Assembly: GCA_036567985.1 (NCBI GenBank)
Contig: DATCTK010000022.1
Location: 471 to 64,470, forward strand
DNA length: 64,000 nucleotides
Reading direction: 5' to 3'
From: Gammaproteobacteria bacterium
GTDB lineage: Bacteria > Pseudomonadota > Gammaproteobacteria > SZUA-229
Part shown: in pieces, positions 5,143 to 35,843 of the stretch
Layout: every line of letters starts with the position of its first letter
Numbering within the stretch: the first letter of the stretch is position 1
Notes under the pieces: generated by a model
Seen by the model: only the letters and a program-made list of their open reading frames with translations
What the model was told of the DNA's origin: nothing
The model's database searches: none
Position numbers and translations under genes: made by a program

Positions 5143-5144
5143 GG

Positions 5145-7371: not shown

Positions 7372-7374
7372 CGA

Positions 7375-7835: not shown

Positions 7836-7837
7836 AC

Positions 7838-8997: not shown

Positions 8998-9012
8998 GAA
9001 TTATGGAAGGGG

Positions 9013-9042: not shown

Positions 9043-9072
9043 GAAGTGTTACAGCCAGTATTGAGAGTTGCA

Positions 9073-9913: not shown

Positions 9914-9915
9914 GG

Positions 9916-10293: not shown

Positions 10294-10303
10294 GATATGC
10301 TTC

Positions 10304-10936: not shown

Positions 10937-10965
10937 GTCTATCTCACTTTAAAGTTGGTTTAAAA

Positions 10966-15576: not shown

Positions 15577-15757
15577 AATTAAAAAGTAAGACAGTTGTCT
15601 AAATCGGCATGCGCAGGCCGATTTGAATTAAAACCAGATAGAAACTTCAAGCCAGAAACCAGCCAGCAGTGCCAGCACAGCCCAGACCCTCCAGTTGATT
15701 CGTGAATAGTTAATGGGTGGTAGTGGTGGTACGTGTTTCATTGTTCTCAATCCTTCT

Positions 15758-17503: not shown

Positions 17504-17507
17504 TGCA

Positions 17508-18311
17508 GTGAATTGTTTTTATGAACCAGGGTTGCCATATCCACATGTTTATTATCCTGAGCTATATGGCGTTTTTATTGGTTTTGCGAAGATACCAGGC
17601 GGTAGCATCTATTTATGCAGTTGCCATAAGTTTGCACTTTCCAGATATATAGCAAATCGTTATACCGCTAAGACATGTCTTAAAGGCCGATGGTGTGTAG
17701 TAGAAGAACAAGATTTTCCCCCGGCACTGATTGACCAATTACACACTAAAGCCGGAATGTCAGCATATGAGTTATTGCATACATTCAAATTTGCACTGCA
17801 TATTTGCCACCGCTGCAACCAGACGCAGCCACTAAATATTTATTGTCTTGCTATGTATGGTAATTTATTCAAGCAGCATTTCGGCTGGTATGTAAAAACC
17901 CACATGCTTTCATTTGGTAATGATGAAAAAAGTGCCGAGCTGAATGTCAGGGCTGCTTTTGGATTTCCGGCAACGGGCAAGCCGCATGTAACTGAAAAGA
18001 TTCTCATGGGTTACATCAAAACCATATACCCGAATAATATTGTCGAATATAGAGTAAGGCTAAAAGAGCTGGAAGGCATGGAGCTCGATATATATTTGCC
18101 TGAATTGAGGCTTGGAATTGAATACCAGGGAAAACAGCATTACAAACCAGTAGGACATTGGGGTGGTGAAGAAGCATTACGCGAGACAAAAATCAGAGAC
18201 CGCCGCAAGAAGCGATTATGCAAACAGCATGGCATTAAATTTGTTACATTTAATTACAGGCAAAAGCTTTCAATTGATTATGTAGAAGACAAACTGAGAA
18301 AGGAGAAATAA
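17508..18311 (+). CDS. Zinc-finger protein with C-terminal DUF559/Vsr-like PD-(D/E)xK endonuclease domain (candidate defence/exclusion nuclease)
   Basis: 267 aa with a GTG start 4 nt after the repressor stop. N-terminal Cys pairs (CSCH, CLKGRWC, CHRCN). C-terminal ELDIYLPELRLGIEYQGKQHY...RDRRKKRLCKQHGIKFVTFNY matches the DUF559 pattern (D..E.K core; RDxxR...G..V.RF). Strongly AT-rich compared with the flanking phage DNA. Confidence 0.6.
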   Translation: MNCFYEPGLPYPHVYYPELYGVFIGFAKIPGGSIYLCSCHKFALSRYIANRYTAKTCLKGRWCVVEEQDFPPALIDQLHTKAGMSAYELLHTFKFALHICHRCNQTQPLNIYCLAMYGNLFKQHFGWYVKTHMLSFGNDEKSAELNVRAAFGFPATGKPHVTEKILMGYIKTIYPNNIVEYRVRLKELEGMELDIYLPELRLGIEYQGKQHYKPVGHWGGEEALRETKIRDRRKKRLCKQHGIKFVTFNYRQKLSIDYVEDKLRKEK

Positions 18312-18312
18312 A

Positions 18313-18504
18313 ATGCCAATCTTTTTATTTATATGTGCGGTACTGGTGCTCCTCTGGAGCATGTTGATGTATATGGGGTCGACAACCGCGTTCCATGAGA
18401 TACAGGCCAGCATTATTTTCATGACGTCTGCACTGTTGTTTACAGGTGCCGCCATTATCGAGGCCGTAAATAAGTTGCAAAACAGTATCAAACAAAAGGG
18501 CTAA
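18313..18504 (+). CDS. Small two-TM membrane protein, co-operonic with the nuclease
   Basis: 63 aa with strong RBS AAGGAGAAATAAAATG. Two hydrophobic helices (IFLFICAVLVLLWSMLMYM; IIFMTSALLFTGAAII). Confidence 0.55.
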   Translation: MPIFLFICAVLVLLWSMLMYMGSTTAFHEIQASIIFMTSALLFTGAAIIEAVNKLQNSIKQKG

Positions 18505-18953
18505 TCACAGCGGTCACCACTAATATTAATAATGGTGTTGTTATATGCTTCTATGTGATTTGTGGGCCCGGTTGACGACAGGGCTGATATAATGACGTAA
18601 GCTACTAATGCACCGAAGCCGAAAGCGATTGCGGTTTTTAAGGTGGTACTGTTACTGGTTTGCTGTTTCATGACGCTTTAATTATACACATGAATTAAAT
18701 CGCTTTTACCTGTCTGCAATGCGGTTGCCAGGCGGATTTTGCTGAATGCACAAAACAGCCCCTAAAACGGCGCAAAAACCCCGACCCGCACCATTGGCCC
18801 ACGATTCGCTCAAACGCGTCTTAGAAATCGCTTTGCCCTATACCCAAAACAAGCAAAAAAAGTGACTTGAATGCTGTTAAAGGTGTGATTAGTGGATATT
18901 CCATTGCGAGCGGTTAAAACCTGATGTAACCTTGCAATTACACCACCACCCAG

Positions 18954-18986
18954 AAGAGGGGAGACAAAAGTCTCCCCTCTTTTTTT
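18954..18986 (+). terminator. Palindrome AGAGGGGAGAC-AAAA-GTCTCCCCTCT plus T7 (intrinsic terminator ending the repressor operon and/or late-promoter element)
   Basis: 11-bp stem, 4-nt loop, TTTTTTT tail. Stem core is identical to the 9023-9042 palindrome. Lies 9 bp upstream of the protease ATG. Confidence 0.6.
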
Positions 18987-18994
18987 ATGCCTGC

Positions 18995-20173
18995 ATGGCA
19001 CACACTCTCGCCATGCCAAATTCAAACACACACATCGACTTCAAAGGTTTCGGCGACTGGATAGAACTGTTTCGCGCAGGCGAACAAACCTCCAGCGACG
19101 GCACTACCCGCAATTTCACCCAGGCAGATCTCGATCAGATGGTGGCCAACCATACCCCGGCCCCCATGGTTGTGGGGCATCCTAAGGTAGATGCACCAGC
19201 CTATGGCTGGTCACAGGCACTCAAGCGTGATGGTGACACTTTACTGGGTAAGTTTAGCGATGTAGACGATGCCTTCAGTGAAATGGTGGAGAAGAAGCGA
19301 TTCCCGAACCGTTCTATTCGTATTGGCAAAAACGATAACGGCTGGTACCTGAAGCACGTTGGCTGGCTTGGCGCGGCTGCGCCTGCCGTGGAAGGTCTGA
19401 AGCCGGTGCAGTTTAACAATGCCGACGATGAAGCATACGACTTTGTAAGCGATGCCTACACCACCAGCAGCATTGTGCGCACGTTCCGACGCCTGCGTGA
19501 TTTCATTGTTGACAAATTCGACCTGGAAACAGCCGACCAGGTAATTCCCGATTACACCCTCGAAAGCCTGGAACAAATTGCAGCCGATCAGCGCAGCGAA
19601 CCAGATGATTCCCACTTTAATCAACCCAACAACGGAGACACAGCCGTGCCGAAAGAATATACCGATGAGCAGATTGAACAAATCCGCAAAGACGCAGCGG
19701 ACGAAGCGACCGCCCAGTTCAGCAGTGAAAACGACACACTGAAAAAACAGCTGGCCGATGCCAACAGCGCCAAAACAGCGATTGAGTTCCAGGCATTTGC
19801 TGATGATCTGCAAGATGCAGGCAAGCTTACACCGGCTTTGGCTACTGGCTTTGTTGAGTTTATGCAGGCACTGGCCGCTGCACCCGTAGAGCTGGAATTC
19901 AGCCAGGGCGAAGGTGATGCCAAAACCGCGATTAAAAAATCGCCCATCGACTGGTTCAAGGAATTTGCCCAGCAGCTGCCTAAGCAGGTGGATATGGGTG
20001 AGTCGGCTGCCGGTGGCAATGTCGACACAGTGGATGCCGCTGCGCAATTTAATGCACCAGCGGGTGCGGTGGTAGACCCTGAGCGCCTGGCACTGGATAA
20101 AAAGGCCCAGGAATACGCCCGTGTAAACAATGTTGATTACGTTGAAGCGGTGATAGCCGTCAGCAACGGTTAA
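18995..20173 (+). CDS. Head maturation protease / scaffold, Mu I-like
   Basis: About 392 aa from the Met after the hairpin (the track ORF start lies inside the hairpin). N-terminal protease-like region, C-terminal acidic/Ala-rich scaffold-like region. Upstream of the capsid gene. Confidence 0.65.
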   Translation: MAHTLAMPNSNTHIDFKGFGDWIELFRAGEQTSSDGTTRNFTQADLDQMVANHTPAPMVVGHPKVDAPAYGWSQALKRDGDTLLGKFSDVDDAFSEMVEKKRFPNRSIRIGKNDNGWYLKHVGWLGAAAPAVEGLKPVQFNNADDEAYDFVSDAYTTSSIVRTFRRLRDFIVDKFDLETADQVIPDYTLESLEQIAADQRSEPDDSHFNQPNNGDTAVPKEYTDEQIEQIRKDAADEATAQFSSENDTLKKQLADANSAKTAIEFQAFADDLQDAGKLTPALATGFVEFMQALAAAPVELEFSQGEGDAKTAIKKSPIDWFKEFAQQLPKQVDMGESAAGGNVDTVDAAAQFNAPAGAVVDPERLALDKKAQEYARVNNVDYVEAVIAVSNG

Positions 20174-20232
20174 TTGCCAGGGTTAATCGAAACGGTTAAT
20201 TCAATCACTCATATATATAGAAGGTAAACGCT

Positions 20233-20574
20233 ATGCCATCCACTAAAAACCCCATTCTTATTTTATCTATTACTGCAGCGGCACTGCTGCTTGAGCACCG
20301 CGCCGTTGGCCAGGACGGCAACTACGCCGCAGCAGGTGAAAAGATGTTCGGCATTGGTACGGAAGACGTAAACGCCATTGGTGATGAACTGCCGGTGGAC
20401 ACCCTGGGCACCAGTATTGCAACCGCCGGTGCGGCGGTGCTGAAAGATGCTGACCTGGAAGTGGGTGCCGACGGCAAGCTGGTAACAGCCGCGGCTGGTG
20501 TTGTGGTGGCGAAAGCCATGCAGGCTGCCGGTGCAGACGGCGACGAATTCGAAGTGTTCCTGCTGCCCAAGTAG
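20233..20574 (+). CDS. Small Gly/Ala-rich head protein (DUF2190-like, possible decoration protein)
   Basis: 113 aa between protease/scaffold and major capsid; composition and position typical of DUF2190. Confidence 0.45.
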   Translation: MPSTKNPILILSITAAALLLEHRAVGQDGNYAAAGEKMFGIGTEDVNAIGDELPVDTLGTSIATAGAAVLKDADLEVGADGKLVTAAAGVVVAKAMQAAGADGDEFEVFLLPK

Positions 20575-20643
20575 TCCACTTTCAAACTTAATTTAAACGC
20601 AGATTGATACGGCATTAAACGCATTTTCAGGAGACTTTAAACC

Positions 20644-21576
20644 ATGCCAAATAACGCACAAAACCAGGTGATTGACCCTATTCTTTCAAAAGTGGCACTG
20701 GGCTATCGTCACCCAGAACATGTGGGCAGTACGCTGTTCCCTGTTGTGCCGGTTAATTCCAGTGGCGGCAAGATCATTCAGTTTGATAAAAGCTCTTTCC
20801 GTCTGTTCAACACCAAGCGTGCGCCGGGTGCTAAAGCCAAGCGTGCATCATTCGGCCACGAAGGTGCCCCCTATGCACTGGAAAACCACGCACTGGATGC
20901 GGTGGTGCCCCGTGAGCGCATGCGTGACGCCAGTGTAGTGCCAGGCATTAATCTCGCCACTCGCGCAGTTAACCTGGTGCTGAAGTCCAGCTCGCTGGTG
21001 CTGGAAAACGCGCAGGCCAGCATTGCAACCAACCTGGCCAACTACGGTGCCAATAACCAGGTGACACTGGCAGGTACAGACCAGTGGAATGACTACGCTA
21101 ACTCCACACCTTTTCAGGATGTTGAAGAAGGCAAAGAAGCTGTTCGCAGCCGCATAGGTGTTTACCCTAACACGATGGAAATCTCGGCCAAGGTATACAA
21201 ACACCTTAAGCAGCACCCAGCCGTGATCGATCGTACCAAGTACACCAGCTCTGAATCAATCACCCCTGAGATTCTGGCGGGTCTGTTCGATGTAGAGAAA
21301 GTAGTCATCGGTAAAGCCATTGCGTTTGCAGATGACGACACCACCATCGATATCTGGGGCCGTGACGTGGTGCTGACCTACTCACCCCAAAACGCCACCG
21401 GTGCGGAAGAACCCAGCTTCGGTTACACCTACCAGATGGAGGGCCACCCCATGGTTGAAGTGCCCTACTGGGATCAGGATGCACGTAGCTGGGTGTATGG
21501 CATGACCCACGAACGCGATGCTGTACTCACCGGTATGGACGCAGGCTTCATTATCAAGAACGCCGTAGCCGCATAA
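20644..21576 (+). CDS. Major capsid protein (Mu T-like)
   Basis: 310 aa, follows protease/scaffold. Good RBS GGAGACTTTAAACCATG. Confidence 0.75.
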   Translation: MPNNAQNQVIDPILSKVALGYRHPEHVGSTLFPVVPVNSSGGKIIQFDKSSFRLFNTKRAPGAKAKRASFGHEGAPYALENHALDAVVPRERMRDASVVPGINLATRAVNLVLKSSSLVLENAQASIATNLANYGANNQVTLAGTDQWNDYANSTPFQDVEEGKEAVRSRIGVYPNTMEISAKVYKHLKQHPAVIDRTKYTSSESITPEILAGLFDVEKVVIGKAIAFADDDTTIDIWGRDVVLTYSPQNATGAEEPSFGYTYQMEGHPMVEVPYWDQDARSWVYGMTHERDAVLTGMDAGFIIKNAVAA

Positions 21577-21647
21577 CACATAACCACGACGACGGGTAAG
21601 GACAACTCAGCCAGGGACGGCTCAACCGGAACTAAAGGTTTAAAAAC

Positions 21648-22022
21648 ATGAGCAAAGAAACAGCAATTACCCTGTTTGCCGAACACCCAGTGAAGGTGGG
21701 TGGCAAGCGACGTTACCAGGAAGAGGTGGTGCTTAAGGATGAAGCCGTAGCACGCCAGCTGGTAACCGATGGCATCTGTAAGGATGTGAATGACCACTTT
21801 AACAAAGTTGCTTCTGATGAAGGTGTTGATGCGGGGGACGCACGCACTAATGCCCTCATTGAGGCTATTAACGGCCTCAGCCCAGATGACAATGCAGCAT
21901 GGGAAAAAGATGGAAGGCCTGCATTGAAGAAACTGACCAAGGCGCTTGATTCCCCAGTGAGCAAGGAAGAACGTGATGCAGCCTGGTTAAAGGTTCAGGA
22001 GATGAGCAATGGCCCAGAATAG
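21648..22022 (+). CDS. Hypothetical head-module protein
   Basis: 124 aa, RBS AAAGG upstream; Lys/Glu-rich. Confidence 0.45.
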   Translation: MSKETAITLFAEHPVKVGGKRRYQEEVVLKDEAVARQLVTDGICKDVNDHFNKVASDEGVDAGDARTNALIEAINGLSPDDNAAWEKDGRPALKKLTKALDSPVSKEERDAAWLKVQEMSNGPE

Positions 22023-22215
22023 CAATAATCAGAACCAGGTAAAGCAACCAACAGGCCGTGTGCTGTCTTACTTCCGCCCTACTGAAACATTCGAGTGTGA
22101 GGAAAATGGCAGCGTGTACGTTAAAGGCCAGCGTTACCAGGTGCGTGAAGGCAACGAGCAGTTGCAGCAGCTGGTGGCTGACTGGGAAGAGCTGGGCAAA
22201 GTAGAGCGGGGTTAA
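22009..22215 (+). CDS. Hypothetical small protein
   Basis: 68-aa ORF overlapping the previous stop; no recognisable motifs. Confidence 0.35.
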   Translation: MAQNSNNQNQVKQPTGRVLSYFRPTETFECEENGSVYVKGQRYQVREGNEQLQQLVADWEELGKVERG

Positions 22216-22222
22216 TCACATT

Positions 22223-22606
22223 ATGTCTATTACACATGTAGCAGCAGTACGTAATGCACTGGCCGATGCAGTGGTTGATCTGATTGATGCAGGCGCAGCC
22301 GATGCCAATGGTGACCTGGTGTTGATGGCAGCCGGTGATGTGACAGTTGCCACACTGGCATTTGCCAACCCAGCGTATGGTGCATCGGCTAACGGCACTG
22401 CAAGTAGCAATGCCATTTCAGATGATACCAACGCAGTGGGCGGCACATTGGCTTTGTTCAAGGTGCAGGACCGCGACAACGGTGAAGTGTTTCGTGGCAC
22501 CATTACCGGTATTGGTGGCGGTGGTGACATTGAAGCCAGCAACACCATCGTTGGTGCAGGTGATACTGTTCAATGCACTGGTCTTGATTACTCTGCGTCT
22601 GCCTAA
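22223..22606 (+). CDS. Hypothetical Gly/Ala-rich head-module protein
   Basis: 127-aa ORF in the head module; its stop overlaps the next start. Confidence 0.4.
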   Translation: MSITHVAAVRNALADAVVDLIDAGAADANGDLVLMAAGDVTVATLAFANPAYGASANGTASSNAISDDTNAVGGTLALFKVQDRDNGEVFRGTITGIGGGGDIEASNTIVGAGDTVQCTGLDYSASA

Positions 22607-24228
22607 TGCCACAGCTGAGCAACTTAACGATTACCGGTTCACTGATAGCCGGGTATGTGGTTACCGTTACAACAAATGTTGCAATGGGAACCGCCTACCT
22701 GGTTGCTGTTCCAGCGGGTGAGCAAGCCCCGAGTAAAGTTCAAATTGCTGCCGGGCAGAATTACCAGGGTAATGCTGCGGTTGCACAACAAACGACAGTT
22801 GAATCAACGAATATTACATTCCCTGCCATTACGGGCTTGAGTTCAAACACATCATACGATGTGCATTGCATACACGATGCATCACCGGTGATATCTGGTT
22901 TGATTGAGGGCATGGATAGCACACCAATGCCCAGTGGTATACCAAGGCCTGCCAAAGGTACGGTGTTTACTGATCCGACCTACGGTACAGAAATACACCG
23001 CATAACAGATCATGTGAATGATTTAACAGGTACCTTACCAGCCTGGGTAAGAAGCGAATACTCACGCTGGAACCCACTGAATGCGGATGAATCCATGTTT
23101 ATGTTCCTGGCTACTGATGGCTGGATTCATATTTATGATGCAAATACATATCAGTGGATTAGGAAATTCACACCTACCGGTGAACAAACCGAAACACTAT
23201 GGCACAAAACTGACCCGAATCTGATTTATCGGCTACCCCCGAACGGCGGCCTCGTTATGTACACACACAATGTACTAACCGATGAATTAATAACTATTGC
23301 CGACTTTGCTAATGTCGCTGCCATTGAAGGTGACCCACTATTAACTGATATTCGTCAGGTACCCGGCTTTGAGAATGCAGCTCGCTGCAGAACGAAGGCT
23401 GAGGGTCGGCCAAGCATGGATGGACGCTACTGGGCATTTATGGTTGACGCTGCAGACTTTTCCGGGCTGGGGCTGATGGTATACGATCTGGTGGCAAATG
23501 AGATAACTGGCACCTATGTCTTTGCAACCGATGGTGGTGGTATTGGCCAGCCAGATCATTGCAGCATGTCACCGTCCGGTGAGTACATTGTGGCGTCCTG
23601 GTATTACCCACAAGATTGTTCAACCAGAACAGGCTTTCAGTTTTATGAGCCAGGAGGTCGAGGCGGCCTGAATAACCCGTGTGGCGCATATGCATTTAGT
23701 CGAGACTTTACTGTAGGTATCGCACTGTCTGAAATTGGCGAGCACTCTGATATGGTGATTGATGCTGCTGGCTACGACTGGTTTGTGTTTATCGACTTTC
23801 AGCAGCATTCAGTTCAGTACGATGACAATATGGTGCGATCAGTTCGGATAACGCCTGATGCACAGGGCAATCAGATTTACCACAACCTGGTGAATTTCAA
23901 ATCGACCGTAAACGGAACTGCAATGCACTTCTCAGGTGCATCGTTTAATAAACCTGGCTGGGTATTAATGTCGGATTATGGCAGCAGTGCTGGCTGGTAT
24001 AACAACAGTATGTGGGCCATGCAGGTGGATGTTCCTAACCCAGCCGTTTATAAGCTGGCACATACTCAGTGGGCACCTGGCCTTGGTTATTTTGGTGAGC
24101 CACATGCAGCAGTAAATCAAGATTTTTCCCGAATTATCTGGAACACCACCTGGCGCAGTGACCAAATAACTGATCTTGAAGTGTTTGAGATTAAGATAAA
24201 CCCGGCAGATTTGGTGGGTAATCTGTAA
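22606..24228 (+). CDS. Large virion-associated protein: N-terminal FN3-like domain plus probable beta-propeller (oligogalacturonate-lyase/TolB-like) domain
   Basis: 540 aa. FN3-like N-terminus (TSYDVHC). GTVFTDPTYGTEIHRITDH start, typical of 7-bladed propellers. Embedded in the head-gene cluster. Confidence 0.5.
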   Translation: MPQLSNLTITGSLIAGYVVTVTTNVAMGTAYLVAVPAGEQAPSKVQIAAGQNYQGNAAVAQQTTVESTNITFPAITGLSSNTSYDVHCIHDASPVISGLIEGMDSTPMPSGIPRPAKGTVFTDPTYGTEIHRITDHVNDLTGTLPAWVRSEYSRWNPLNADESMFMFLATDGWIHIYDANTYQWIRKFTPTGEQTETLWHKTDPNLIYRLPPNGGLVMYTHNVLTDELITIADFANVAAIEGDPLLTDIRQVPGFENAARCRTKAEGRPSMDGRYWAFMVDAADFSGLGLMVYDLVANEITGTYVFATDGGGIGQPDHCSMSPSGEYIVASWYYPQDCSTRTGFQFYEPGGRGGLNNPCGAYAFSRDFTVGIALSEIGEHSDMVIDAAGYDWFVFIDFQQHSVQYDDNMVRSVRITPDAQGNQIYHNLVNFKSTVNGTAMHFSGASFNKPGWVLMSDYGSSAGWYNNSMWAMQVDVPNPAVYKLAHTQWAPGLGYFGEPHAAVNQDFSRIIWNTTWRSDQITDLEVFEIKINPADLVGNL

Positions 24229-26123
24229 TGGCGGAAATAATTCGATACGTAGATCCGGATGCCCAGGGTGCAAATAACGGACTCACACCAGCTGATGCAT
24301 ACACATCGCTCAATGCATGGAATGCGGCGGAGGCGACAGATCTGGTAGCAGCTGGTGATACACATCTATGTATTTGTTCAGCGTCTGCTGGAACAATCAG
24401 TACCGGACAGTTCGCTATTAATGGCTGGACCACCAGTGAAACCAACTTTATTACAATACGCGGGAACCTTTCAACCGGTATCGAAACTGAAGCGAACGTG
24501 TTCCAGCTGCTGGCGACTACTGATTATGACACCACGCTGGATGTGACTGCGAATCATGTCATTTTTGAGGATTTGATACTCGGTAATCAGTCTGTTGGTT
24601 CAGGCTACAATAATGTGCTGTCACTCGCACCGACTGGCCTCAGCCAGTACATAGTACGTAAATCAATCATACATAAAGAGTCAGACGATTCCCTGGCGGG
24701 TGCTGCACGTGGGCTGGGTATTGTGCTGGGTGCTAATACTGGCCTTGTTGTGATTGAGAACAGTATCATCCACGGCAATTTCAATCACATGATACAGGCC
24801 GCATATCCAAACAATATGAACCTGCGCCTATATAACTCCGTGCTACGAGGACGTGCGGTTCGTGCTTTGAGCATGGAAGGCACTATTACTTCCGAAGTTA
24901 AAAACAATATTTTCGAAGCAGATGTCGGTGGGTTTTCAGAGTTTGTGGAAAATTACCGTGCCTTATATGGTACACATACTGAAGATTATAATATTGCTTC
25001 TGACGCGTCACTGACCGGCGTAAACAGCATAAACAATACAGCGCTTGTCTATGCAGATGCTGCAAACCACGACTACAGCTTAAATGCCTCGGATACCGTT
25101 GCAATTGGTTCAGGTACCGGGCCTGCGGCTGATGCAAATGTACCGATAACTGATATTGTTGGTGCTACGCGTTCTGGTAGCACAACTGATATTGGTAGCA
25201 AGATTTACGATGGACCAATGACATCGGTAATAACCGGTTTGCTGCAGGCTGATTCAGCTGTTGTCACTAGTGCGATTGTTATAGATTCAAACATTGATGT
25301 GACAGTAAGCGGCAGCATACAAGCAGAGGCAGCCGCCGTATCAGGCATACTATCGAACGATCCGGTTTCTGAAATAGTCACTGACACCATCACCACGGCT
25401 GCTGGTGTCGGTGGCAGTATCCAGGCACAGGATGCTGTTATTAGTGGCTCACTGAGCGTTACATCATCTGCTGTCAATTCAACTGTGAGTGGTTCTGTAC
25501 AGGCCGTTCCTGCAAGTGTTGACGCTACCCTGTTAGTAGTCCCACCTCAAACGGCGGTGATCAGTGGAGGTGTGCAGGCACAGCCAGCAACTCTGTCCGG
25601 TTCATTACTGGCATTTATTCCATACCGATTCAAGTACACAACGGCTGCAAAACTATTCAGTGCTTTTGGCAAAACCGAAATGGCCTTAATCACATCGCCT
25701 GAGCACGCCACGGTCAGCGGTGATCTGTTTTACGCGGTGATGATGAATAACGATGTATCTGCCTGGTCACTTCAGCAAATTGCAGATGCCAATGATGCTG
25801 CAAGTCGTCTCGCTGATACTATTCAATCGGCAGAACATCTGATCGACTCTTACATCAGCCCGCGTTATGCCTTGCCATTGTCACAGGAACTCGTTGACAC
25901 AAGCCCGCTACCTACCTACTGCAATCACATTGTGCGCTTTATGCTAATGGACGATCGCACCACCGATGAAGTGGACAAGCGATACGACCAGGCAATGAAA
26001 TGGCTGCGTGATGTAAGCATGAACAAAGCCAGCCTGGGTGCGGACGACACCGCCGTGGCCAGTTCACCTGGGCGTATGGTGAGCCGTCGTGGCCGCAGCA
26101 AACTCAACTGGGATGGTTTCTAA
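24228..26123 (+). CDS. Fusion protein: right-handed beta-helix (pectate-lyase/NosD-like) domain plus Ser/Val-rich repeats plus C-terminal Mu gp36-like (DUF1320) head-completion domain
   Basis: 631 aa. Beta-helix repeats (GNQSVGSGYNNVLSL; IENSIIHGNFNH). Six repeats of ...VSGSIQA.... C-terminus IDSYISPRYALPLSQELVDTSPLPTYCNHIVRFMLMDDRTTDEVDKRYDQAMKWLRDV matches the gp36/DUF1320 signature. Confidence 0.6.
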   Translation: MAEIIRYVDPDAQGANNGLTPADAYTSLNAWNAAEATDLVAAGDTHLCICSASAGTISTGQFAINGWTTSETNFITIRGNLSTGIETEANVFQLLATTDYDTTLDVTANHVIFEDLILGNQSVGSGYNNVLSLAPTGLSQYIVRKSIIHKESDDSLAGAARGLGIVLGANTGLVVIENSIIHGNFNHMIQAAYPNNMNLRLYNSVLRGRAVRALSMEGTITSEVKNNIFEADVGGFSEFVENYRALYGTHTEDYNIASDASLTGVNSINNTALVYADAANHDYSLNASDTVAIGSGTGPAADANVPITDIVGATRSGSTTDIGSKIYDGPMTSVITGLLQADSAVVTSAIVIDSNIDVTVSGSIQAEAAAVSGILSNDPVSEIVTDTITTAAGVGGSIQAQDAVISGSLSVTSSAVNSTVSGSVQAVPASVDATLLVVPPQTAVISGGVQAQPATLSGSLLAFIPYRFKYTTAAKLFSAFGKTEMALITSPEHATVSGDLFYAVMMNNDVSAWSLQQIADANDAASRLADTIQSAEHLIDSYISPRYALPLSQELVDTSPLPTYCNHIVRFMLMDDRTTDEVDKRYDQAMKWLRDVSMNKASLGADDTAVASSPGRMVSRRGRSKLNWDGF

Positions 26124-26566
26124 TGGCTGGCGTAAGGCTTGATTACAGGTTTGATGACAAACAGGTGCTTAATGCGCTGAAGCGTATGGAAGATTTCAAT
26201 GCGCGGCCCATGTTCGATGAGATTGGTGGCTATCTGGATTCATCTGTAACCCAGCGTTTTAAGGAAGGTGTTGGCCCAGATGGCATTGCCTGGGAAGAAA
26301 GTGAGCGGGCAAAAAATGAAGGCGGTAAAACCCTGGTTGATTTTGGTCACCTGCGAGATTCTGTTACATCTTTTATTTATCTTGATGGCAGTGGCCTGGA
26401 GCATGGTAGCGACATGGTGTATGCCGCGATTCATCAGTTTGGTGGCAAGACCGGTCGCAATAAATCGGTTGAATTAGTGGCGCGTCCTTTCATTGGTATT
26501 AACGGTGATGATGAAGATGAGATAAATAGCATTGCCCGCGACTTTGTACAGCAGGTGATGCCGTAA
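26123..26566 (+). CDS. Virion morphogenesis / tail completion protein (Mu G, P2 gpS family)
   Basis: 147 aa. TQRFKEGVGPDGIAWEE motif typical of the family. Confidence 0.7.
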   Translation: MAGVRLDYRFDDKQVLNALKRMEDFNARPMFDEIGGYLDSSVTQRFKEGVGPDGIAWEESERAKNEGGKTLVDFGHLRDSVTSFIYLDGSGLEHGSDMVYAAIHQFGGKTGRNKSVELVARPFIGINGDDEDEINSIARDFVQQVMP

Positions 26567-27108
26567 TGATCACAACTGTTGAGAATTATTTAATCGAAAA
26601 AATCACTGAGCTTTTCAGCGGCCGCCTACGCCTTGTTGATTCATTGCCAGGTCAACTGGACCAGGCACTGATAAAAGCCATGGCCGTAAATACACCGGCT
26701 GTATATGTCACCTTTCTGGGTGGTCGCTCGAATAACAGTGCTTGGGTAGCTAACTGGGGGCTGTATGTGTCAACCGGGCTGGGTGACCACAAGCTGCGCC
26801 GCCAGGGCGATGCACGCATTATTGGTGCCTATGAAATTATCAATCTACTCATCAGCTACTTCGATGATCACACGGTACCAGAGGTTGGGTCATTCAGCTT
26901 CGAGCGTGTTCAAAACCTGTTTAATCTGAAACTCGACAGCAATGGCGTAAGTGTATACGGGATTACCCTGAATTTACCCATGCCGTTCGATGATGTATCT
27001 GAAGCGGACGGTGCACTGCAGAACTTCATTACCTACCGTGCTGAACATTCACTGGTGCCTGGTGATGATGAACCCACCGCAATTGATGAAATTACACTGG
27101 ATCAATGA
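26566..27108 (+). CDS. Mu gp37-like protein (DUF1834)
   Basis: 180 aa, position between G and sheath; family-typical size. Confidence 0.5.
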   Translation: MITTVENYLIEKITELFSGRLRLVDSLPGQLDQALIKAMAVNTPAVYVTFLGGRSNNSAWVANWGLYVSTGLGDHKLRRQGDARIIGAYEIINLLISYFDDHTVPEVGSFSFERVQNLFNLKLDSNGVSVYGITLNLPMPFDDVSEADGALQNFITYRAEHSLVPGDDEPTAIDEITLDQ

Positions 27109-27135
27109 TCTGAATGAACGAACCGGAGCAATGAA

Positions 27136-27339
27136 ATGAGCATGCTGAATGTTAAACCAAAGATGATTAATGGCGTTGCCTGCATTGTGCGCATGCCAGA
27201 GATGAACAACCAGGTGCTACCTGAGAAAGGTACGCACGTACCAGATAACAGCTACTGGCGTCGTCGCTTGCGTGATGGCGATATCGAGCGTGTGCCTGCT
27301 GCCAGGCCTGCAAAATCAAATACTCAAACGGAGAGCTAA
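27136..27339 (+). CDS. DUF2635-like small protein (Mu gp38-like)
   Basis: 67 aa. VPDNSYWRRRLRDGDIERV matches the DUF2635 core. Immediately upstream of the sheath gene. Confidence 0.6.
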   Translation: MSMLNVKPKMINGVACIVRMPEMNNQVLPEKGTHVPDNSYWRRRLRDGDIERVPAARPAKSNTQTES

Positions 27340-27342
27340 GCC

Positions 27343-28797
27343 ATGCAATTTAACGATATTCCTGCCAACCTGCGTGTACCAGGTGTTTACATTGAATTCG
27401 ACTCATCGCTCGCCGGTAACAGTGTTGTTGCATTCAAGTTGCTGGTGATTGGCCAGCGCCTGGCAACCGGTACGGTAGCCGAAGGCGTGCCCACGCTGGT
27501 AAGCAACCCAGACGATGCCGAGACTTATTTCGGCCGTGGCTCTATGTTGGCCGAGCAGATTAAGGCGTTGAAGCACGCTAACCAGTTTATTGAGACCTGG
27601 GCAATTGCACTGGATGATGACGGCGCTGCGGTTGATGCCACCGGAACCATCACCGCAACCGGCGCGGCCACGGCCAATGGCACCATTCCGCTGATGATTG
27701 CCGGTAAGAAAGTGAATGTTGCCGTATTCAGTGGTGATACACAGGACGATATGGCCACTGCGATCGCTGCGGCCATTACGGCAGACACCACGCTACCTGT
27801 TACCGCAGCAGTTAATGGTGTGACAACCAACCAGGTAGACCTTACCTGCAAGTGGGCCGGTGAAACCGGTAATGACATCGACCTGCGCGTGGGTTACTAC
27901 GGCGAGAAACTGCCCGCCGGTACCGCCATTGCCTTTGGTGCAATGGCAGGTGGAACCACTAACCCGGATCTTGCTACAGCAATTAATGCATTTGGTGATG
28001 AGTGGTGGAACTGGATAGTGATGCCCTACACCGACACTGCCAACCTGGTGGCACTGGAAACCGAACTGGAATCGCGCTGGGGCCCGATGGTGCAGAAAGG
28101 TGCGCGCGCCTTTACCGCGTACAAAAATACACTGGCCTTAACCTCTACCTTCGGCAACGGCCGTAACAGCCCGCATGTGAGCACTATGGGCATTAACACC
28201 TCACCCACACCACCGTGGAACTGGGCGGCGATTAATGCGGTGGTTGCCGCCGCATCACTTTCAATCGACCCCGCACGGCCACTGCAAACGCTGACATTGC
28301 CTGGTGTATTGGCACCGGCCATTGAAGACCGCTGGACCACCACGGAGCGCAATACATTGCTGTATGACGGGATTGCAACCCACGTAGTGAATGCGGACGG
28401 CACGGTTTCGATTGAGCGTCAAATCACCATGTACCAGCTCAACGCAGCGGGCAATGCAGATGATGCCTACCTGGACATTAACACCCCGGAAACACTGGAG
28501 CGGATTCGCTTCACCCAGCGCAGCCTGTTTGCACGTAAGTTTCCGCGCCACAAACTAGCAAATGACAGTGCAAAAGGTGGCGAAGGTGTGATGCAACCGA
28601 AAATTGCCAGGGCCGAACTGCTGATGCTGTACCGCGACATGGAAGACCTAGGCTGGGTGCAGGGTTATGACGACTACAAGGCGAGCGTTCAGGTTGAGGT
28701 TGATGCAAATGACCCCACGCGACTGAATGTGCAGGACTCACCCATGCTGGTTGGCCAGTACCGGGTGCATGCCCAAAAAGCACAGTTTTTACGTTAA
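27343..28797 (+). CDS. Contractile tail sheath protein (Mu L-like)
   Basis: 484 aa. N-terminal IPANLRVPGVYIEFDSS sheath signature. Confidence 0.9.
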   Translation: MQFNDIPANLRVPGVYIEFDSSLAGNSVVAFKLLVIGQRLATGTVAEGVPTLVSNPDDAETYFGRGSMLAEQIKALKHANQFIETWAIALDDDGAAVDATGTITATGAATANGTIPLMIAGKKVNVAVFSGDTQDDMATAIAAAITADTTLPVTAAVNGVTTNQVDLTCKWAGETGNDIDLRVGYYGEKLPAGTAIAFGAMAGGTTNPDLATAINAFGDEWWNWIVMPYTDTANLVALETELESRWGPMVQKGARAFTAYKNTLALTSTFGNGRNSPHVSTMGINTSPTPPWNWAAINAVVAAASLSIDPARPLQTLTLPGVLAPAIEDRWTTTERNTLLYDGIATHVVNADGTVSIERQITMYQLNAAGNADDAYLDINTPETLERIRFTQRSLFARKFPRHKLANDSAKGGEGVMQPKIARAELLMLYRDMEDLGWVQGYDDYKASVQVEVDANDPTRLNVQDSPMLVGQYRVHAQKAQFLR

Positions 28798-28822
28798 CGA
28801 TTAACCAGCAAAGGTAAACGAC

Positions 28823-29179
28823 ATGGCAAAACAATTTACAGGCAGGGTCACCATTCGTGTTGATGGCCAGGAATATAAGTCGATGGATGGCGCCACACTG
28901 AACCCCGGTGGTGTTAACCGCTCCACGGTTAAAGGTGGCGGCCGCGTGCATGGCTACACCGAGGAAGACCAGGAACCGACGATGGACTTCAAGTTGCCAC
29001 ACAATGCCGGTGTGTCGCTTAAGCGACTGGGTTCACTGACTGATGCGACAGTGATGTTTGAGACAGACAGCGGCGTGCAGTTTATTACCCGCGGCTGTTA
29101 CACCACCGAACCACCCAGCCTGTCTGGCAATGAGGTGGACGTGAAGATGGCCGGTGTTGAATGTGACGAACTGGTGTAG
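28823..29179 (+). CDS. Tail tube protein (Mu M-like)
   Basis: 118 aa directly after sheath. Confidence 0.8.
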   Translation: MAKQFTGRVTIRVDGQEYKSMDGATLNPGGVNRSTVKGGGRVHGYTEEDQEPTMDFKLPHNAGVSLKRLGSLTDATVMFETDSGVQFITRGCYTTEPPSLSGNEVDVKMAGVECDELV

Positions 29180-29186
29180 GTGAGAT

Positions 29187-29567
29187 ATGGCTGAGATAAA
29201 CGTACTTCTAATTAATGGCTACAAGCTGGGTGATGCTGTCATAAAGGATGTAGTGATTCGCGATATTACTGCTGGTGACATTATCGAATCTCAAATTGAG
29301 GCTGAGCGTCTGGTACAGACAGAAGATGGGCCAGAACTCGTGACAAGCCCCACGCTGGCCGGTGTTCATATGCTGCGTCGCCAGATCGTTTCGATTGGTG
29401 ATATTCAGGGCCCCATTAGCCTTCATGAAATAAAGCGGCTGGATCCGGTTGATTTCAACCTGCTGCAGGCTAAGGCCAGTGAGCTTGAATCGGCCTGTAT
29501 GAAGAAAGCCAGTGGGGAGGCAGCGGTACAGCGGGGGCGAGATCATCAGGGCGAGTCGATCGATTAA
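29187..29567 (+). CDS. Tail assembly chaperone (Mu gp41-like); candidate programmed frameshift site
   Basis: 126 aa between tube and tape measure. An overlapping 58-codon open frame (29503-29679, +1 frame) runs exactly to the TMP start. Confidence 0.6.
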   Translation: MAEINVLLINGYKLGDAVIKDVVIRDITAGDIIESQIEAERLVQTEDGPELVTSPTLAGVHMLRRQIVSIGDIQGPISLHEIKRLDPVDFNLLQAKASELESACMKKASGEAAVQRGRDHQGESID

Positions 29568-29671
29568 TACAATTGTGCTGGCCCTGGCATTACACGTTGG
29601 CTGGACTGAACAGGTGATACACGCCCTGCCGCTACAACGTTTGATGAGTTATTTAAAGTTACTGGATAGAG

Positions 29672-31072
29672 ATGGCTGATTTAAAAACATCTGTTGTTAT
29701 TGACCTGAAAGGTAATCTGCTGCGTCGTTCGCGGCAGTATACGCAGAGCATGGTCAACTTCGCACAAAAATCGCGCAGCAGTAACAAGCTTTTGAGTCGT
29801 TCTATTGCAGCAACAGGCCGCGGCATACGTCGCATGGGTAATCAGTACACTGCGTTGTTAGGCGGCGTGGCGACGGGTGCGGCGGTTAAAAATGTAATGA
29901 ACTTGCAGGAGCGTTTTGTTCGCCTGGGCATTCAGGCAAATGTGAGCAATGAAAAGGTGAACGGGCTGAAGAAAAGGATTTTTGAGGTGGCCTCTGCCCC
30001 TGATATTCGGGTTAACGCCAGCCAGGTTACATCCGCCATTGAGGAAATTGTTGAAAAGACCGGTGACCTGGAGTTTGCCGAGAAGAACATGCGTAACATT
30101 GGTATAGCGATACAAGCAACAGGTGCCGACGGCAGTGCCATTGGTGGCATTATGGCCGAGTTTCAGAAAATGGGAATTACCTCGACACGTGAGGTTATGC
30201 AGGCGCTCGACACACTCAATGTACAAGGTAAAGAAGGTGCCTTTACATTGCAAAATCTGGCTGCGCTCGGTCCGCGTGTTGTTACTGCGTATACATCACT
30301 TGGGCGAACCGGTGTTGGTTCTCTGAGAGAAATGGGCGCAGCCCTGCAGGTGATACGTCAGGGTACCGGATCCAGTGAGCAGGCGGCGACCTCGTTTGAG
30401 GCGCTGCTGCGTACATTTGGTGATAAGGCAAAAGTAGCCAAGCTCGAAGCCAGTGGAATTCAGGTGTTCGACCCGGACGAACTCAAAAAAGGCAATGAAG
30501 TTCTGCGACCGATTAATCAGCTGATGAAAGAAATTATTGAGAAGACCGGCGGCAAGAAAACCCTACTCAGCAATGTTTTCGATGCTGAGGCGATTCGCGC
30601 CTTTAATGCGGCGGCAGCGGAATTTCAGCGCACAGGTTCCGTTGAGTCACTTGAAAAATTCATGAATGTGCAGGCCAATGGCTCAACCACACTACGTGAT
30701 GCCGCCCGCGCCGCTGGCACAGCAAACGCGGCATTAACCAACCTGGGCACAGCTGCTGGGCGTATGGCCGATGAGCTGTTGGCAGAACCAATACAGATGG
30801 CGGCGGATGCTATTAATAACCTGATGAACAGTGGCCCCAGCCTGCAAGACCGAATTGGTGGCACGATTGATACGGTACTGGCCACTTTCGGCAGCGATGC
30901 TGCACAGCGTCGCCTTGATGCACACTTTAAACAACAGGCTATGGCCGGTTTTAATGGTCAACTGGACATAAAAGTTGATAGTGAAGGTCGCGCCTCTGTT
31001 ACCAAAATGAAAACTGATAACAAGAATATCAATATGGACGTCGACACCGGCACCCAGATGGTGAACCCATGA
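29672..31072 (+). CDS. Tail tape measure protein
   Basis: 466 aa, alpha-helical, Ala/Gly-rich. Position after chaperone. Short for a myophage TMP. Confidence 0.75.
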   Translation: MADLKTSVVIDLKGNLLRRSRQYTQSMVNFAQKSRSSNKLLSRSIAATGRGIRRMGNQYTALLGGVATGAAVKNVMNLQERFVRLGIQANVSNEKVNGLKKRIFEVASAPDIRVNASQVTSAIEEIVEKTGDLEFAEKNMRNIGIAIQATGADGSAIGGIMAEFQKMGITSTREVMQALDTLNVQGKEGAFTLQNLAALGPRVVTAYTSLGRTGVGSLREMGAALQVIRQGTGSSEQAATSFEALLRTFGDKAKVAKLEASGIQVFDPDELKKGNEVLRPINQLMKEIIEKTGGKKTLLSNVFDAEAIRAFNAAAAEFQRTGSVESLEKFMNVQANGSTTLRDAARAAGTANAALTNLGTAAGRMADELLAEPIQMAADAINNLMNSGPSLQDRIGGTIDTVLATFGSDAAQRRLDAHFKQQAMAGFNGQLDIKVDSEGRASVTKMKTDNKNINMDVDTGTQMVNP

Positions 31073-35834: not shown

Positions 35835-35843
35835 AGGTGATTT

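What the first reader, a model, noticed from the sequence alone, without database searches (positions are those of the whole stretch)
22606..26123. Two large enzyme-like proteins inside the head module: FN3 plus beta-propeller protein, and beta-helix fused to gp36 (DUF1320) head-completion domain
Between the major capsid gene and the tail-completion gene lie a 540-aa protein and a 631-aa protein. The 540-aa protein has an FN3-like N-terminus and a probable 7-bladed propeller starting GTVFTDPTYGTEIHRITDH, reminiscent of oligogalacturonate-lyase or TolB-type propellers. The 631-aa protein has a pectate-lyase/NosD-like right-handed beta-helix, six Ser/Val-rich repeats (VSGSIQA...), and a C-terminus with the Mu gp36/DUF1320 signature (IDSYISPRYALPLSQELV...KRYDQAMKWLRDV). 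gp36 is normally a small standalone head-completion protein. Fusing it to a beta-helix suggests a capsid- or neck-anchored fibre with carbohydrate-binding or depolymerase activity, with the propeller protein as a second displayed enzyme. This is unusual for Mu-like phages, where depolymerases sit on tail fibres.
Basis: partly seen in the sequence, partly recalled or inferred. Interest (0 to 1): 0.7.

Follow-up and report, generated by a model that had tools for sequence, protein, structure and literature searches.

The report
Phage neck adaptor with swappable appendages
In a small clade of Mu-like prophages, the ring protein that joins head to tail carries a large exchangeable beta-helix domain, and an exchangeable lyase-like propeller gene sits beside it, so these phages probably carry slime-recognition or slime-cutting gear at the neck rather than the tail tip.

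The parts
22606..24228 (+). Gene for the 540-aa protein: conserved N-terminal anchor plus a diversifying PL22-like propeller.
   Evidence: The ORF is. There are no Pfam, PHROG or NCBIfam hits. It has 28 homologs. The start and stop overlap the neighbouring genes as TAATG.
22606..22920 (+). aa 1-105: putative Ig/FN3-like beta-sandwich, the candidate virion anchor.
   Evidence: It is 90-100% identical to the sister phage protein P0006, while the rest of the protein falls to 33-57%. Five strands are predicted at pLDDT 40-70. There is a weak PF16656 hit at E=0.054. It has no signal peptide, unlike the bacterial homologs.
22948..24210 (+). aa 115-535: seven-bladed beta-propeller with a PL22-like fold.
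24228..26123 (+). Gene for the 631-aa fused head-tail adaptor.
   Evidence: The ORF is. It holds the only gp36-like sequence in the window: an HMM of 47 standalone relatives against 816 six-frame segments gives a single hit at E=8e-60. There is no credible internal start.
24228..25217 (+). aa 1-330: right-handed parallel beta-helix domain, the exchangeable distal module.
   Evidence: pLDDT is mostly >90. Foldseek hits are PL9, GH136, CE8, PL6 and tailspikes. The family has 59 mostly standalone ~335-aa members, several carrying PF13229. In sister phage L001 this domain is replaced by an unrelated one.
25230..25631 (+). aa 335-468: Ser/Gly/Val/Gln/Ala-rich linker with five 'hSGShQA..A.hSG.L' repeats.
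   Evidence: Repeat positions are. There is no DNA tandem repeat. It is 84% identical in L001 and 50% over two repeats in L013. P0090 carries the same motif. The structure is low-confidence.
25635..26072 (+). aa 470-615: Mu gp36 (DUF1320) head-tail adaptor domain.
   Evidence: PF07030 at E=1.7e-20. phrog_195 head-tail adaptor at E=4.4e-24. PDB match to Mu gene product J, 9khx, at E=5e-5. It is 98% identical in L001.
26073..26120 (+). aa 616-631: C-terminal tail, the counterpart of the Mu gp36 C-arm that inserts into the portal clip.
   Evidence: The alignment to 9khx ends at chain residue 121 of 141 and query residue 616. The role of the C-arm is described in PMC11915804. The assignment here is an inference.
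22223..22606 (+). 127-aa protein translationally coupled upstream. It is a virion-structural PHROG and a possible partner.
   Evidence: phrog_3758 at E=4.7e-5. It is 99% identical in L001, 78% in L013, and replaced in L012. The junction is TAATG.
26123..27108 (+). Downstream coupled neck genes: Phage_tail_S/gpG-like (26123-26566) and the Mu gp37 tail terminator (26566-27108).
   Evidence: PF05069 at E=4e-24 and PF08873 at E=9.5e-16. The junctions are TAATG.

Best explanation
The 631-aa protein is this Mu-like myophage's one and only head-tail adaptor. Its C-terminal 160 aa are a normal Mu gp36 domain. In Mu, gp36 forms a 12-subunit ring under the portal, held by a C-terminal arm inserted into the portal clip. 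Extra sequence can therefore only be tolerated at the N-terminus, which is where it sits.

The extension has two parts. A ~130-aa repeat linker acts as a tether or shaft. A 330-aa right-handed beta-helix forms the distal module. Assembly of the neck would display up to twelve beta-helix modules as built-in neck appendages (inferred).

The 540-aa protein is translationally coupled just upstream. I read it as a second virion-attached protein. Its near-invariant Ig-like N-domain is the anchor, and its fast-evolving PL22-like propeller is a polysaccharide lyase or hydrolase (inferred).

Both distal modules are exchanged or diversified between otherwise near-identical phages, as receptor-binding proteins are. 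The likely job is to bind and/or cut the host's exopolysaccharide or capsule. That would let a phage with only a 219-aa tail fibre stick to, and move through, the matrix before the baseplate engages the cell.

Shown: the domain architectures, the sole-adaptor status, clade-wide conservation of the fusion, module swapping, and the genomic contexts of homologs. Inferred: the 12-fold display, virion attachment of the 540-aa protein, the substrate, and catalysis.
For: - The gp36 domain is established, and it is the only adaptor in the window.
- Mu gp36 is a dodecamer whose C-arm inserts into the portal clip (PMC11915804). In Bas63 the adaptor N-terminus (Cys2) lies at the connector periphery, next to the collar (PMC12609058).
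- The beta-helix fold is supported, and the propeller fold.
- Five lineages carry the fusion in the same slot.
- The N-domains fall into at least three non-homologous types.
- In IMG/VR, all loci with >=67% identical adaptor domains are fused, and all 13 with <=55% are standalone.
- Window against L001: flanks 91-99% identical, gp36 98%, linker 84%, beta-helix no hit, propeller protein 62%. The propeller protein's N-terminal ~120 aa are 90-100% identical against 33-57% for the propeller itself.
- Standalone beta-helix relatives sit just before the endolysin or integrase, at the end of structural modules.
- Propeller homologs are lipoproteins. The two bacterial loci examined are EPS loci with Wzy_C, a MurJ-type flippase and a polysaccharide deacetylase, and one also has a glycosyltransferase.
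- In phages the propeller is part of 950-1680-aa proteins that hit tail-fibre PHROGs. In jumbo phage LucasX it lies two genes downstream of a GTA host-specificity protein.
- The five genes are joined by TAATG junctions, and there is no internal start for a short gp36.
- The tail fibre is only 219 aa.
Against: - There is no direct evidence that either protein is in virions, or that either is catalytic.
- The window's beta-helix lacks three polar residues that are >=91% conserved in its family (R51S, D58S, Q117I).
- Membership of PL22 fails at the sequence level.
- The linker and gp36 parts of the model are low-confidence, with pLDDT <50.
- L013/L014 keep the fusion and the repeats but have lost the upstream enzyme gene, so the 540-aa protein is dispensable. 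Its attachment site is unknown.
- Twelve bulky N-domains around a neck could clash sterically, and the stoichiometry and oligomeric state are untested.
- All the sequences come from metagenomes or MAGs, with no cultured phage.
Confidence: 0.55

Rival explanations
1. The 540-aa propeller protein is not a virion component. It would be a soluble enzyme made late and released at lysis, as with free depolymerase forms, or a cargo gene serving the lysogen's polysaccharide metabolism. It would merely be lodged in the head-neck operon.
For: It is dispensable: L013/L014 retain only a 70-aa remnant or nothing in that slot, and L012 has an unrelated 359-aa protein there. It has no PHROG or Pfam structural annotation. 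Bacterial homologs are ordinary exported lipoproteins, and the two loci examined are EPS loci.
Against: It lacks any export signal and has replaced it with an N-domain that is 90-100% conserved while the enzyme domain diverges to 33-57%. That is the anchor-plus-variable-head pattern of virion proteins. It is translationally coupled on both sides to neck genes. In other phages the domain is embedded in tail-fibre-like proteins.
Confidence: 0.22
2. The N-terminal extension of the adaptor is a purely structural collar. It would reinforce the head-tail joint or manage the tail fibres, as proposed for T4 wac, XM1 gp40 and the Bas63 collar/whiskers, and would have no role in host polysaccharide recognition.
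For: Known neck decorations are often assigned structural or fibre-handling roles (PMC12609058). The distal CBM of the A-1(L) neck fibre did not bind the host (PMC10966104). The window's beta-helix has lost conserved polar residues.
Against: A structural brace should co-evolve slowly with the neck. Instead the N-domain is replaced by non-homologous domains between phages whose neck, sheath and capsid proteins are 91-99% identical. Its standalone relatives sit in tailspike/fibre positions. The fold is that of carbohydrate-active enzymes and tailspikes.
Confidence: 0.13
3. The fusion is a precursor. Proteolysis or internal initiation would yield a normal ~165-aa gp36 for the neck and free the beta-helix domain as a soluble or separately assembled protein.
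For: The linker is predicted to be disordered or low-confidence, and such linkers are protease-accessible. Mu's protease does process other head proteins, such as the portal C-terminus (PMC11915804).
Against: There is no in-frame start with a usable Shine-Dalgarno sequence near the domain boundary: only GTG449 with a mis-spaced GGAGG, and M485, which lies inside the first helix. No self-cleaving chaperone domain was detected. The adaptor binds after packaging, outside the capsid, away from the prohead protease (established assembly order; inference). The linker repeats are conserved across the clade, which argues that the linker has a function.
Confidence: 0.08
4. The long ORF is an assembly or gene-calling artefact, such as a chimeric contig or a lost stop codon.
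For: The source is a metagenome-assembled genome.
Against: Intact fused ORFs occur at the same locus on independent contigs from different samples and sources: Logan SRR33270650 and SRR31704081, JGI 3300042196, and IMG/VR 3300037755 and 3300037470. P0090 alone is seen on 6 contigs.
Confidence: 0.02

Closest known systems
Bacteriophage Mu gp36 / gene product J (Pfam PF07030, DUF1320), the dodecameric head-tail adaptor
   Same: The C-terminal 160 aa match the family well above threshold and match the solved Mu protein. The gene order is the same: capsid ... gp36, gpG-like, gp37, sheath. A C-terminal tail corresponding to the portal-inserting C-arm is present.
   Different: Mu gp36 and about 140 of the 150 closest representatives are 127-184 aa and standalone. 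Here 460 aa of beta-helix plus repeats precede the domain.
Lactococcal siphophage neck passage structure (NPS) proteins
   Same: They are neck-mounted accessory proteins and a hotspot of recent domain shuffling. This includes exchange of a pectin-lyase-like domain on a conserved anchor, and some carry carbohydrate-binding modules (PMC10684548).
   Different: NPS is a separate protein with an N-terminal anchor, found in Gram-positive siphophages. Here the module is covalently part of the adaptor, anchored at its C-terminus, in a Mu-like contractile-tailed phage of a Gammaproteobacterium.
Collar, whisker and neck-fibre systems: T4 wac, XM1 gp40, Bas63/Sf14 collar+whisker, Anabaena phage A-1(L) gp82/81/80
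   Same: They are appendages radiating from the adaptor/neck region of myophages with 12-, 6- or 5-fold arrangement. The A-1(L) fibre ends in a carbohydrate-binding module. The Bas63 collar uses a long N-terminal 'rope' to hold the whisker subunits.
   Different: All are separate gene products that dock onto the connector. None is a fusion with the adaptor itself, and none carries a beta-helix or propeller enzyme-like domain.
Tailspike and tail-fibre depolymerases (right-handed beta-helix, e.g. P22, HK620 and Klebsiella K2-2 tailspikes), and phi29 gp12 collar appendages (the latter from my own knowledge)
   Same: They share the beta-helix fold, a conserved-anchor/variable-head evolutionary pattern, and relatives in tailspike gene positions.
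   Different: In those proteins the anchor is N-terminal and the location is the tail or baseplate. Here the anchor is C-terminal and located at the neck. Trimerisation is untested. Fold matches to tailspikes are weak (E>0.4), and the best matches are PL9, GH136 and CE8.
PL22 oligogalacturonate lyase (VPA0088, PDB 3c5m)
   Different: Identity is 10-11%. There is no Pfam or profile-level sequence relationship. PL22 is a cytoplasmic oligosaccharide lyase (own knowledge), whereas this family is made up of exported lipoproteins and phage fibre domains.

Membership tests
Mu gp36 / DUF1320 head-tail adaptor (PF07030) | Sequence match to the family model above the curated threshold. | tested here: met
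   73.9 bits against a cut-off of 24.7, E=1.7e-20, aa 470-615. phrog_195 at E=4.4e-24. PDB 9khx Mu gene product J at E=5e-5.
Mu gp36 / DUF1320 head-tail adaptor (PF07030) | Gene position between the capsid genes and the gpG/gp37/sheath genes, as the single adaptor of the phage. | tested here: met
   It is the only gp36-like segment in the window.
Mu gp36 / DUF1320 head-tail adaptor (PF07030) | A small (~140-170 aa) single-domain protein. | tested here: not met
   The protein is 631 aa with a 460-aa N-terminal extension. About 140 of the 150 nearest representatives are 127-184 aa.
Mu gp36 / DUF1320 head-tail adaptor (PF07030) | A dodecameric ring under the portal with the C-arm inserted into the portal clip. 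| not testable with these tools
   This is known for Mu (PMC11915804). A C-terminal tail of similar length is present, but no multimer modelling was available.
Right-handed parallel beta-helix (pectate-lyase-like) carbohydrate-active proteins | A right-handed beta-helix fold. | tested here: met
   AF2 gives pLDDT mostly >90 over aa 1-330. All significant Foldseek hits are beta-helix enzymes: 1ru4 at E=2e-4, plus 7v6m, 1xg2 and 5c1e. Family members hit PF13229, with P0034 at E=6.5e-12.
Right-handed parallel beta-helix (pectate-lyase-like) carbohydrate-active proteins | An identifiable catalytic constellation of a specific CAZy family (PL1/PL9 Ca-binding Asp plus a Lys/Arg base, or CE8 or GH28 acid pairs). 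| tested here: inconclusive
   The query itself has no Pfam hit. It has substitutions at three polar positions that are >=91% conserved in its family: R51S, D58S and Q117I.
PL22 oligogalacturonate lyase | A seven-bladed propeller fold closest to PL22 structures. | tested here: met
PL22 oligogalacturonate lyase | Sequence membership, by the Pfam PL22 model or a profile match to PL22 structures. | tested here: not met
   There are no Pfam families at E<=10 for aa 116-540. The family profile against PDB sequences finds only weak WD40/TolB blade similarity and no PL22.
PL22 oligogalacturonate lyase | A Mn2+ site formed by His/Gln ligands, plus a catalytic His/Arg (from my own knowledge of the Yersinia enzyme). 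| not testable with these tools
   Invariant H380, D382, H441, E266, D294 and R132 exist. Their spatial arrangement could not be examined without coordinates.
FN3 / Ig-like domain (N-terminus of the 540-aa protein) | A match to an FN3 or Ig-like model, or a confident beta-sandwich prediction. | tested here: inconclusive
   PF16656 (FN3-type) only at E=0.054, 14.5 bits against a cut-off of 30. There are no PDB sequence hits. AF2 predicts five strands at pLDDT 40-70. Homologs carry Big_5, FN3 or CARDB at this position.
Virion-associated depolymerase / receptor-binding protein | A conserved virion-anchor module joined to a rapidly exchanged or diverging distal module. | tested here: met
   540-aa protein: aa 1-120 are 90-100% identical against 33-57% for the propeller. 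631-aa protein: gp36 98%, linker 84%, N-domain replaced.
Virion-associated depolymerase / receptor-binding protein | Physical presence in virions and polysaccharide-degrading activity. | not testable with these tools
   This needs proteomics, cryo-EM and enzyme assays. Only contextual support is available.
Neck fibre / collar-whisker / neck passage structure systems | A separate accessory protein that docks non-covalently, or by disulfide, onto the connector. | tested here: not met
   Here the appendage and the adaptor are one polypeptide with no internal start. The comparators are described.

The most novel reading that the evidence does not exclude
The conserved repeat linker of the adaptor acts as a 'rope', like the N-terminal rope of the Bas63 collar that holds several whisker subunits. 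One copy of the 540-aa propeller enzyme would dock on each 'hSGShQA' repeat through its near-invariant Ig-like N-domain. The neck would then carry a two-enzyme depolymerase collar of 12 beta-helices plus up to ~60 propellers. That collar, rather than the 219-aa tail fibre, would be the primary adsorption and matrix-penetration organ of this contractile-tailed phage. Whole enzyme cassettes would be swappable by recombination at the conserved linker and anchor.
Probability: 0.1. Interest if true: 0.8.

Novelty: new variant of a known kind. Interest (0 to 1): 0.55.

Why it matters
Host-recognition and depolymerase modules of tailed phages are normally looked for at the tail tip. Host-range prediction tools and depolymerase finders use that assumption.

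A clade in which the essential head-tail adaptor is itself the carrier of exchangeable carbohydrate-directed domains shows three things:
- The neck can be a site of receptor-binding-protein-style evolution in Gram-negative myophages.
- The anchoring polarity can be the reverse of the usual one, with a C-terminal anchor.
- The stoichiometry is potentially fixed at twelve copies.

The finding also supplies an uncharacterised, widespread PL22-like propeller family. It occurs as bacterial lipoproteins, with the two loci examined being EPS loci, and as phage fibre domains. This family is a candidate new class of EPS-active enzyme.

Finally, the adaptor N-terminus is a natural display scaffold that might be exploited for phage engineering.

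Tried and rejected
- Pfam, PHROGs and NCBIfam gave nothing for the 540-aa protein or for the query's own beta-helix.
- PDB sequence search of the 540-aa protein gave only spurious antibody hits. Its N-domain gave none.
- The family profile against the PDB did not reach PL22, so I do not file the propeller as PL22.
- Neighbours of the bacterial homologs resemble exosortase-A-associated EPS genes, but every hit is far below the NCBIfam cut-offs. I claim only 'EPS locus'.
- Tandem Repeats Finder found no DNA repeats under the protein repeats.
- The search for an internal start that could make a short gp36 was negative.
- hhalign of the beta-helix family against the alternative N-domains found only a 58-column cap motif in P0002 and nothing in P0090. 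They are different domains, not divergent copies.
- The GTDB genome scan for the adaptor clade found nothing.
- The L012 slot protein (359 aa) has no Pfam or PDB match.
- Pfam on the large propeller-carrying phage proteins was nearly empty.
- Literature searches found no description of an adaptor-fused appendage. The library is incomplete, so this is absence of evidence only.
- I considered an assembly artefact and rejected it, because independent contigs share the fusion.
- I considered capsid anchoring and found nothing to support it.

Full report
**Setting**

The window holds a Mu-like transposable prophage next to host genes.
- On the minus strand lie Mu F, the Mu portal, a large terminase, DUF1804, a MuB-like ATPase and the MuA transposase (81-16799).
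- On the plus strand, from about 19.0 kb, lie the protease/scaffold, the major capsid protein (20644-21576), three small ORFs, the two target genes, a Phage_tail_S/gpG-like gene, gp37, the sheath, the tube, the tape measure, the Mu baseplate genes and a 219-aa tail fibre.
- Host genes follow, including an SLT-LysM transglycosylase and DnaK.
- The exact proteins are on record from a 65-kb contig of a Gammaproteobacteria MAG.

The five genes 127 aa → 540 aa → 631 aa → 147 aa → 180 aa are chained by TAATG stop/start overlaps. They therefore belong to one translationally coupled late unit together with the bona fide neck genes.

**The 631-aa protein**

- Residues 470-615 match Pfam Phage_Mu_Gp36 at 73.9 bits (cut-off 24.7, E=1.7e-20) and phrog_195 'head-tail adaptor'. 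They also match the solved Mu gene product J, 9khx and 5ydn.
- According to the Mu virion structure paper, gp36 is a dodecameric adaptor made of a helical domain and a C-arm that inserts into the portal clip (PMC11915804). An HMM built from 47 standalone relatives finds exactly one segment in the whole window, and it is this ORF (E=8e-60). The fusion is therefore the phage's working adaptor within the sequence available.
- No in-frame start with a usable ribosome-binding site lies near the domain boundary.
- An AlphaFold2 model built on 56 sequences is confident (mostly pLDDT >90) for residues 1-330 and unreliable after that. Its Foldseek matches are all right-handed beta-helix carbohydrate enzymes: PL9 pectate lyase Pel9A at E=2e-4, GH136, CE8 pectin methylesterases and PL6 lyases, with phage tailspikes further down.
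- Residues 335-468 hold five degenerate 'hSGShQA..A.hSG.L' repeats plus two half-repeats. There is no DNA-level tandem repeat.

**The 540-aa protein**

- No Pfam, PHROG or NCBIfam family matches it.
- The model (mean pLDDT 82.9, about 90 across 105-535) is all-beta. I count seven four-stranded blades, the last closed by the N- and C-terminal strands.
- This is a resemblance of fold only. Identity is 10-11%, there is no Pfam hit even at E<=10, and a family profile does not retrieve PL22 from PDB sequences.
- The N-terminal ~105 residues are a low-confidence beta region with a sub-threshold FN3-type hit. Homologs carry Big_5, FN3, cadherin-like or CARDB domains at that position. 'Ig/FN3-like' is plausible but not shown.

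**How common is the fusion?**

- Searching 1.84 billion representatives with the adaptor domain alone gave 725 hits.
- Of the best 150, about 140 are 127-184 aa standalone proteins.
- Only the query, P0002 (588 aa), P0090 (816 aa) and P0091 (907 aa) have long N-terminal extensions, and these four are each other's closest relatives. Two other proteins show smaller additions.
- In IMG/VR, the three loci with >=67% identical adaptor domains are fused, and all thirteen with <=55% are standalone.
- Genomic contexts show five related Mu-like lineages with the fusion in the identical slot: the window, L001, L012, L013/L014/L017/L018, and L065/L066 with L016. This rules out an assembly artefact.

**Both genes evolve like receptor-binding proteins**

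- Between the window and L001 the protease, capsid, small ORFs, gpG, gp37, sheath, tube and baseplate proteins are 91-99% identical.
- The adaptor domain is 98% identical and the repeat linker 84%. The beta-helix has no detectable counterpart and has been replaced.
- hhalign finds only a 58-column cap motif shared with P0002 and nothing with P0090. The L066 version of the P0002-type domain is only 45% identical, while the L016 frame (end of the N-domain, linker and gp36) is 84% identical to P0002.
- So at least three unrelated N-domains ride on one linker+adaptor.
- The 540-aa protein is 62% identical overall, but this is unevenly spread. Residues 1-120 are 90-100% identical, the propeller is 33-57%, and the last ~50 residues are 67-77%.
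- The slot itself is variable: 540, 543 or 538 aa in three lineages, an unrelated 359-aa protein in L012, and a 70-aa remnant or nothing in L013/L014.

**What the distal domains do elsewhere**

- The beta-helix family has 59 members, mostly standalone at about 335 aa, and several carry Pfam Beta_helix. Members sit at the end of phage structural modules, just before the endolysin or integrase, which is the usual tailspike/fibre position.
- One relative, P0004, already combines the beta-helix with Ser/Gly/Ala/Leu-rich repeats but has no gp36. The helix-plus-shaft module therefore probably predates its capture by the adaptor.
- Bacterial propeller homologs mostly start with a lipoprotein signal, by a crude lipobox scan. 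The two examined lie in polysaccharide loci with Wzy_C, a MurJ-type flippase and a polysaccharide deacetylase. One also has a glycosyltransferase and the other an Asn-synthase-like amidotransferase.
- Similarity of those neighbours to exosortase-A-associated genes is far below the curated cut-offs.
- In phages the propeller occurs in 33 IMG/VR contigs, inside proteins of up to 1,681 aa. Three of these hit tail-protein and tail-fibre PHROGs outside the propeller, and none lies within 8 kb of a gp36 adaptor.
- In Xanthomonas jumbo phage LucasX the propeller is part of a 1,172-aa protein two genes downstream of a 'GTA host specificity protein'.
- The phage versions in this clade lack any signal peptide. 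They carry the conserved N-domain instead.

**Mechanism proposed**

- The gp36 C-arm must reach the portal, so added mass can only be N-terminal. In Bas63 the adaptor's residue 2 lies at the connector periphery, beside the collar.
- Assembly of the adaptor ring would therefore display up to twelve beta-helix modules on ~130-aa tethers around the neck.
- The 540-aa protein would attach through its conserved N-domain to a site still unknown. Candidates are the repeat linker, the 127-aa protein and the capsid.
- Together the two proteins would bind and/or cleave host exopolysaccharide.
- The domain architecture, sole-adaptor status, clade conservation, modular exchange and contexts are shown. Twelve-fold display, virion attachment of the propeller protein, the substrate and catalysis are inferred.

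**Evidence against**

- The propeller retains every invariant residue of its family (R132, Y152, N159, W199, E266, S270, Y275, D294, S322, H380, D382, H441, S443 and more). The window's beta-helix, by contrast, departs from its family at several >=91%-conserved positions, including R51S, D58S and Q117I. Binding or an altered specificity is at least as likely as catalysis.
- The propeller gene is dispensable in L013/L014.
- The linker and gp36 parts of the model are unreliable.
- No cultured phage represents the clade.

**Comparison with what is known**

- Neck appendages are known in several systems: T4 wac, XM1 gp40, the Bas63/Sf14 collar and whiskers, and the A-1(L) neck fibres with a distal carbohydrate-binding module.
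- Lactococcal neck passage structure proteins are a documented hotspot of domain shuffling, including a pectin-lyase-like domain on a conserved anchor (PMC10684548).
- All of these are separate proteins docked onto the connector.
- What is new here is the covalent fusion to the Mu-type adaptor itself, the C-terminal anchoring polarity, the pairing with a PL22-like propeller gene, and the setting in a Gram-negative contractile-tailed transposable phage.
- I found no description of this in the searchable literature, but that library is incomplete.
- I rate it a new variant of a known kind, of moderate-to-good interest.

Noticed in passing
window 81-16799 (- strand) versus 17165-36503 (+ strand); L012:3824-4078; L013:1-4062: Unlike Mu, this clade splits its genome into two divergent arms. 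Early genes, terminase, portal and Mu F run leftward, and the protease through the tail genes run rightward. The same junction occurs in L001, L012 and L013. L012 keeps an 84-aa Mu F fragment (PF04233) on the rightward arm just upstream of the protease, which hints at an ancestral inversion with a breakpoint between F and the protease.
   Followed up: partly
window 29672-31072: The tape measure protein is only 32-33% identical to those of L001, L012 and L013, although the sheath, tube and baseplate genes around it are 85-97% identical. This is a second mosaic replacement in the tail module.
   Followed up: no
window 17165-18504: This is a variable accessory slot at the divergent junction. A 112-aa HTH protein gives a PADLOC capH-like hit (E=3e-8) and is probably a phage regulator. 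A 267-aa protein has no Pfam or PADLOC match, and by eye its C-terminus resembles a DUF559/Vsr-type nuclease motif. In L001 and L012 the corresponding position holds an SNase-domain protein.
   Followed up: partly
window 35844-36503: The only tail-fibre candidate is 219 aa, with a C-terminal His-rich 'NEMPSHNHGV..HRH' motif reminiscent of a tail-collar domain. It has no Pfam hit. The equivalent gene in L013 is 447 aa. There is no depolymerase-sized protein at the tail tip.
   Followed up: partly
L012:8921-10000 and L013:9788-10000: The L012 slot protein (359 aa, no Pfam or PDB match) and the 70-aa L013 ORF share a C-terminal tail ('FAM..V.SGG.G...LPVY'). The L013 ORF looks like a deletion remnant of an L012-type gene. 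The slot upstream of the adaptor gains and loses cargo.
   Followed up: partly
P0220 (278 aa) and P0235 (350 aa): These are other, unrelated elaborations of gp36 adaptors. P0220 has a ~110-aa N-terminal extension. P0235 has a ~200-aa insertion after the first helix. The adaptor seems to tolerate decoration more widely than in the clade studied here.
   Followed up: no
P0004 (L003:882-2417): This standalone beta-helix relative carries about eight 20-aa 'LxGxLxGQSxAxAALxVxR' repeats and a short C-terminal tail but no gp36. It is preceded by a PF23140 'Gp80' protein. It may represent the free-standing fibre from which the adaptor fusion was assembled.
   Followed up: no
L054-L060 (about 1,665-aa ORFs, e.g. 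L054:6540-11546): These giant phage proteins contain the propeller domain at about aa 487. The one scanned (L054) also has a sub-threshold Pfam Beta_helix hit at aa 183-286. Beta-helix and propeller may therefore also be combined in a single polypeptide in other phages.
   Followed up: no
L009, L016 and L065 (all from JGI metagenome 3300033553): One metagenome holds a phage of this clade (a 538-aa propeller gene, and a fused adaptor whose gp36 domain is 93% identical to the window's). It also holds a bacterial contig whose EPS locus encodes a 42%-identical propeller lipoprotein. This is a possible phage-host or gene-exchange pairing and worth checking.
   Followed up: no
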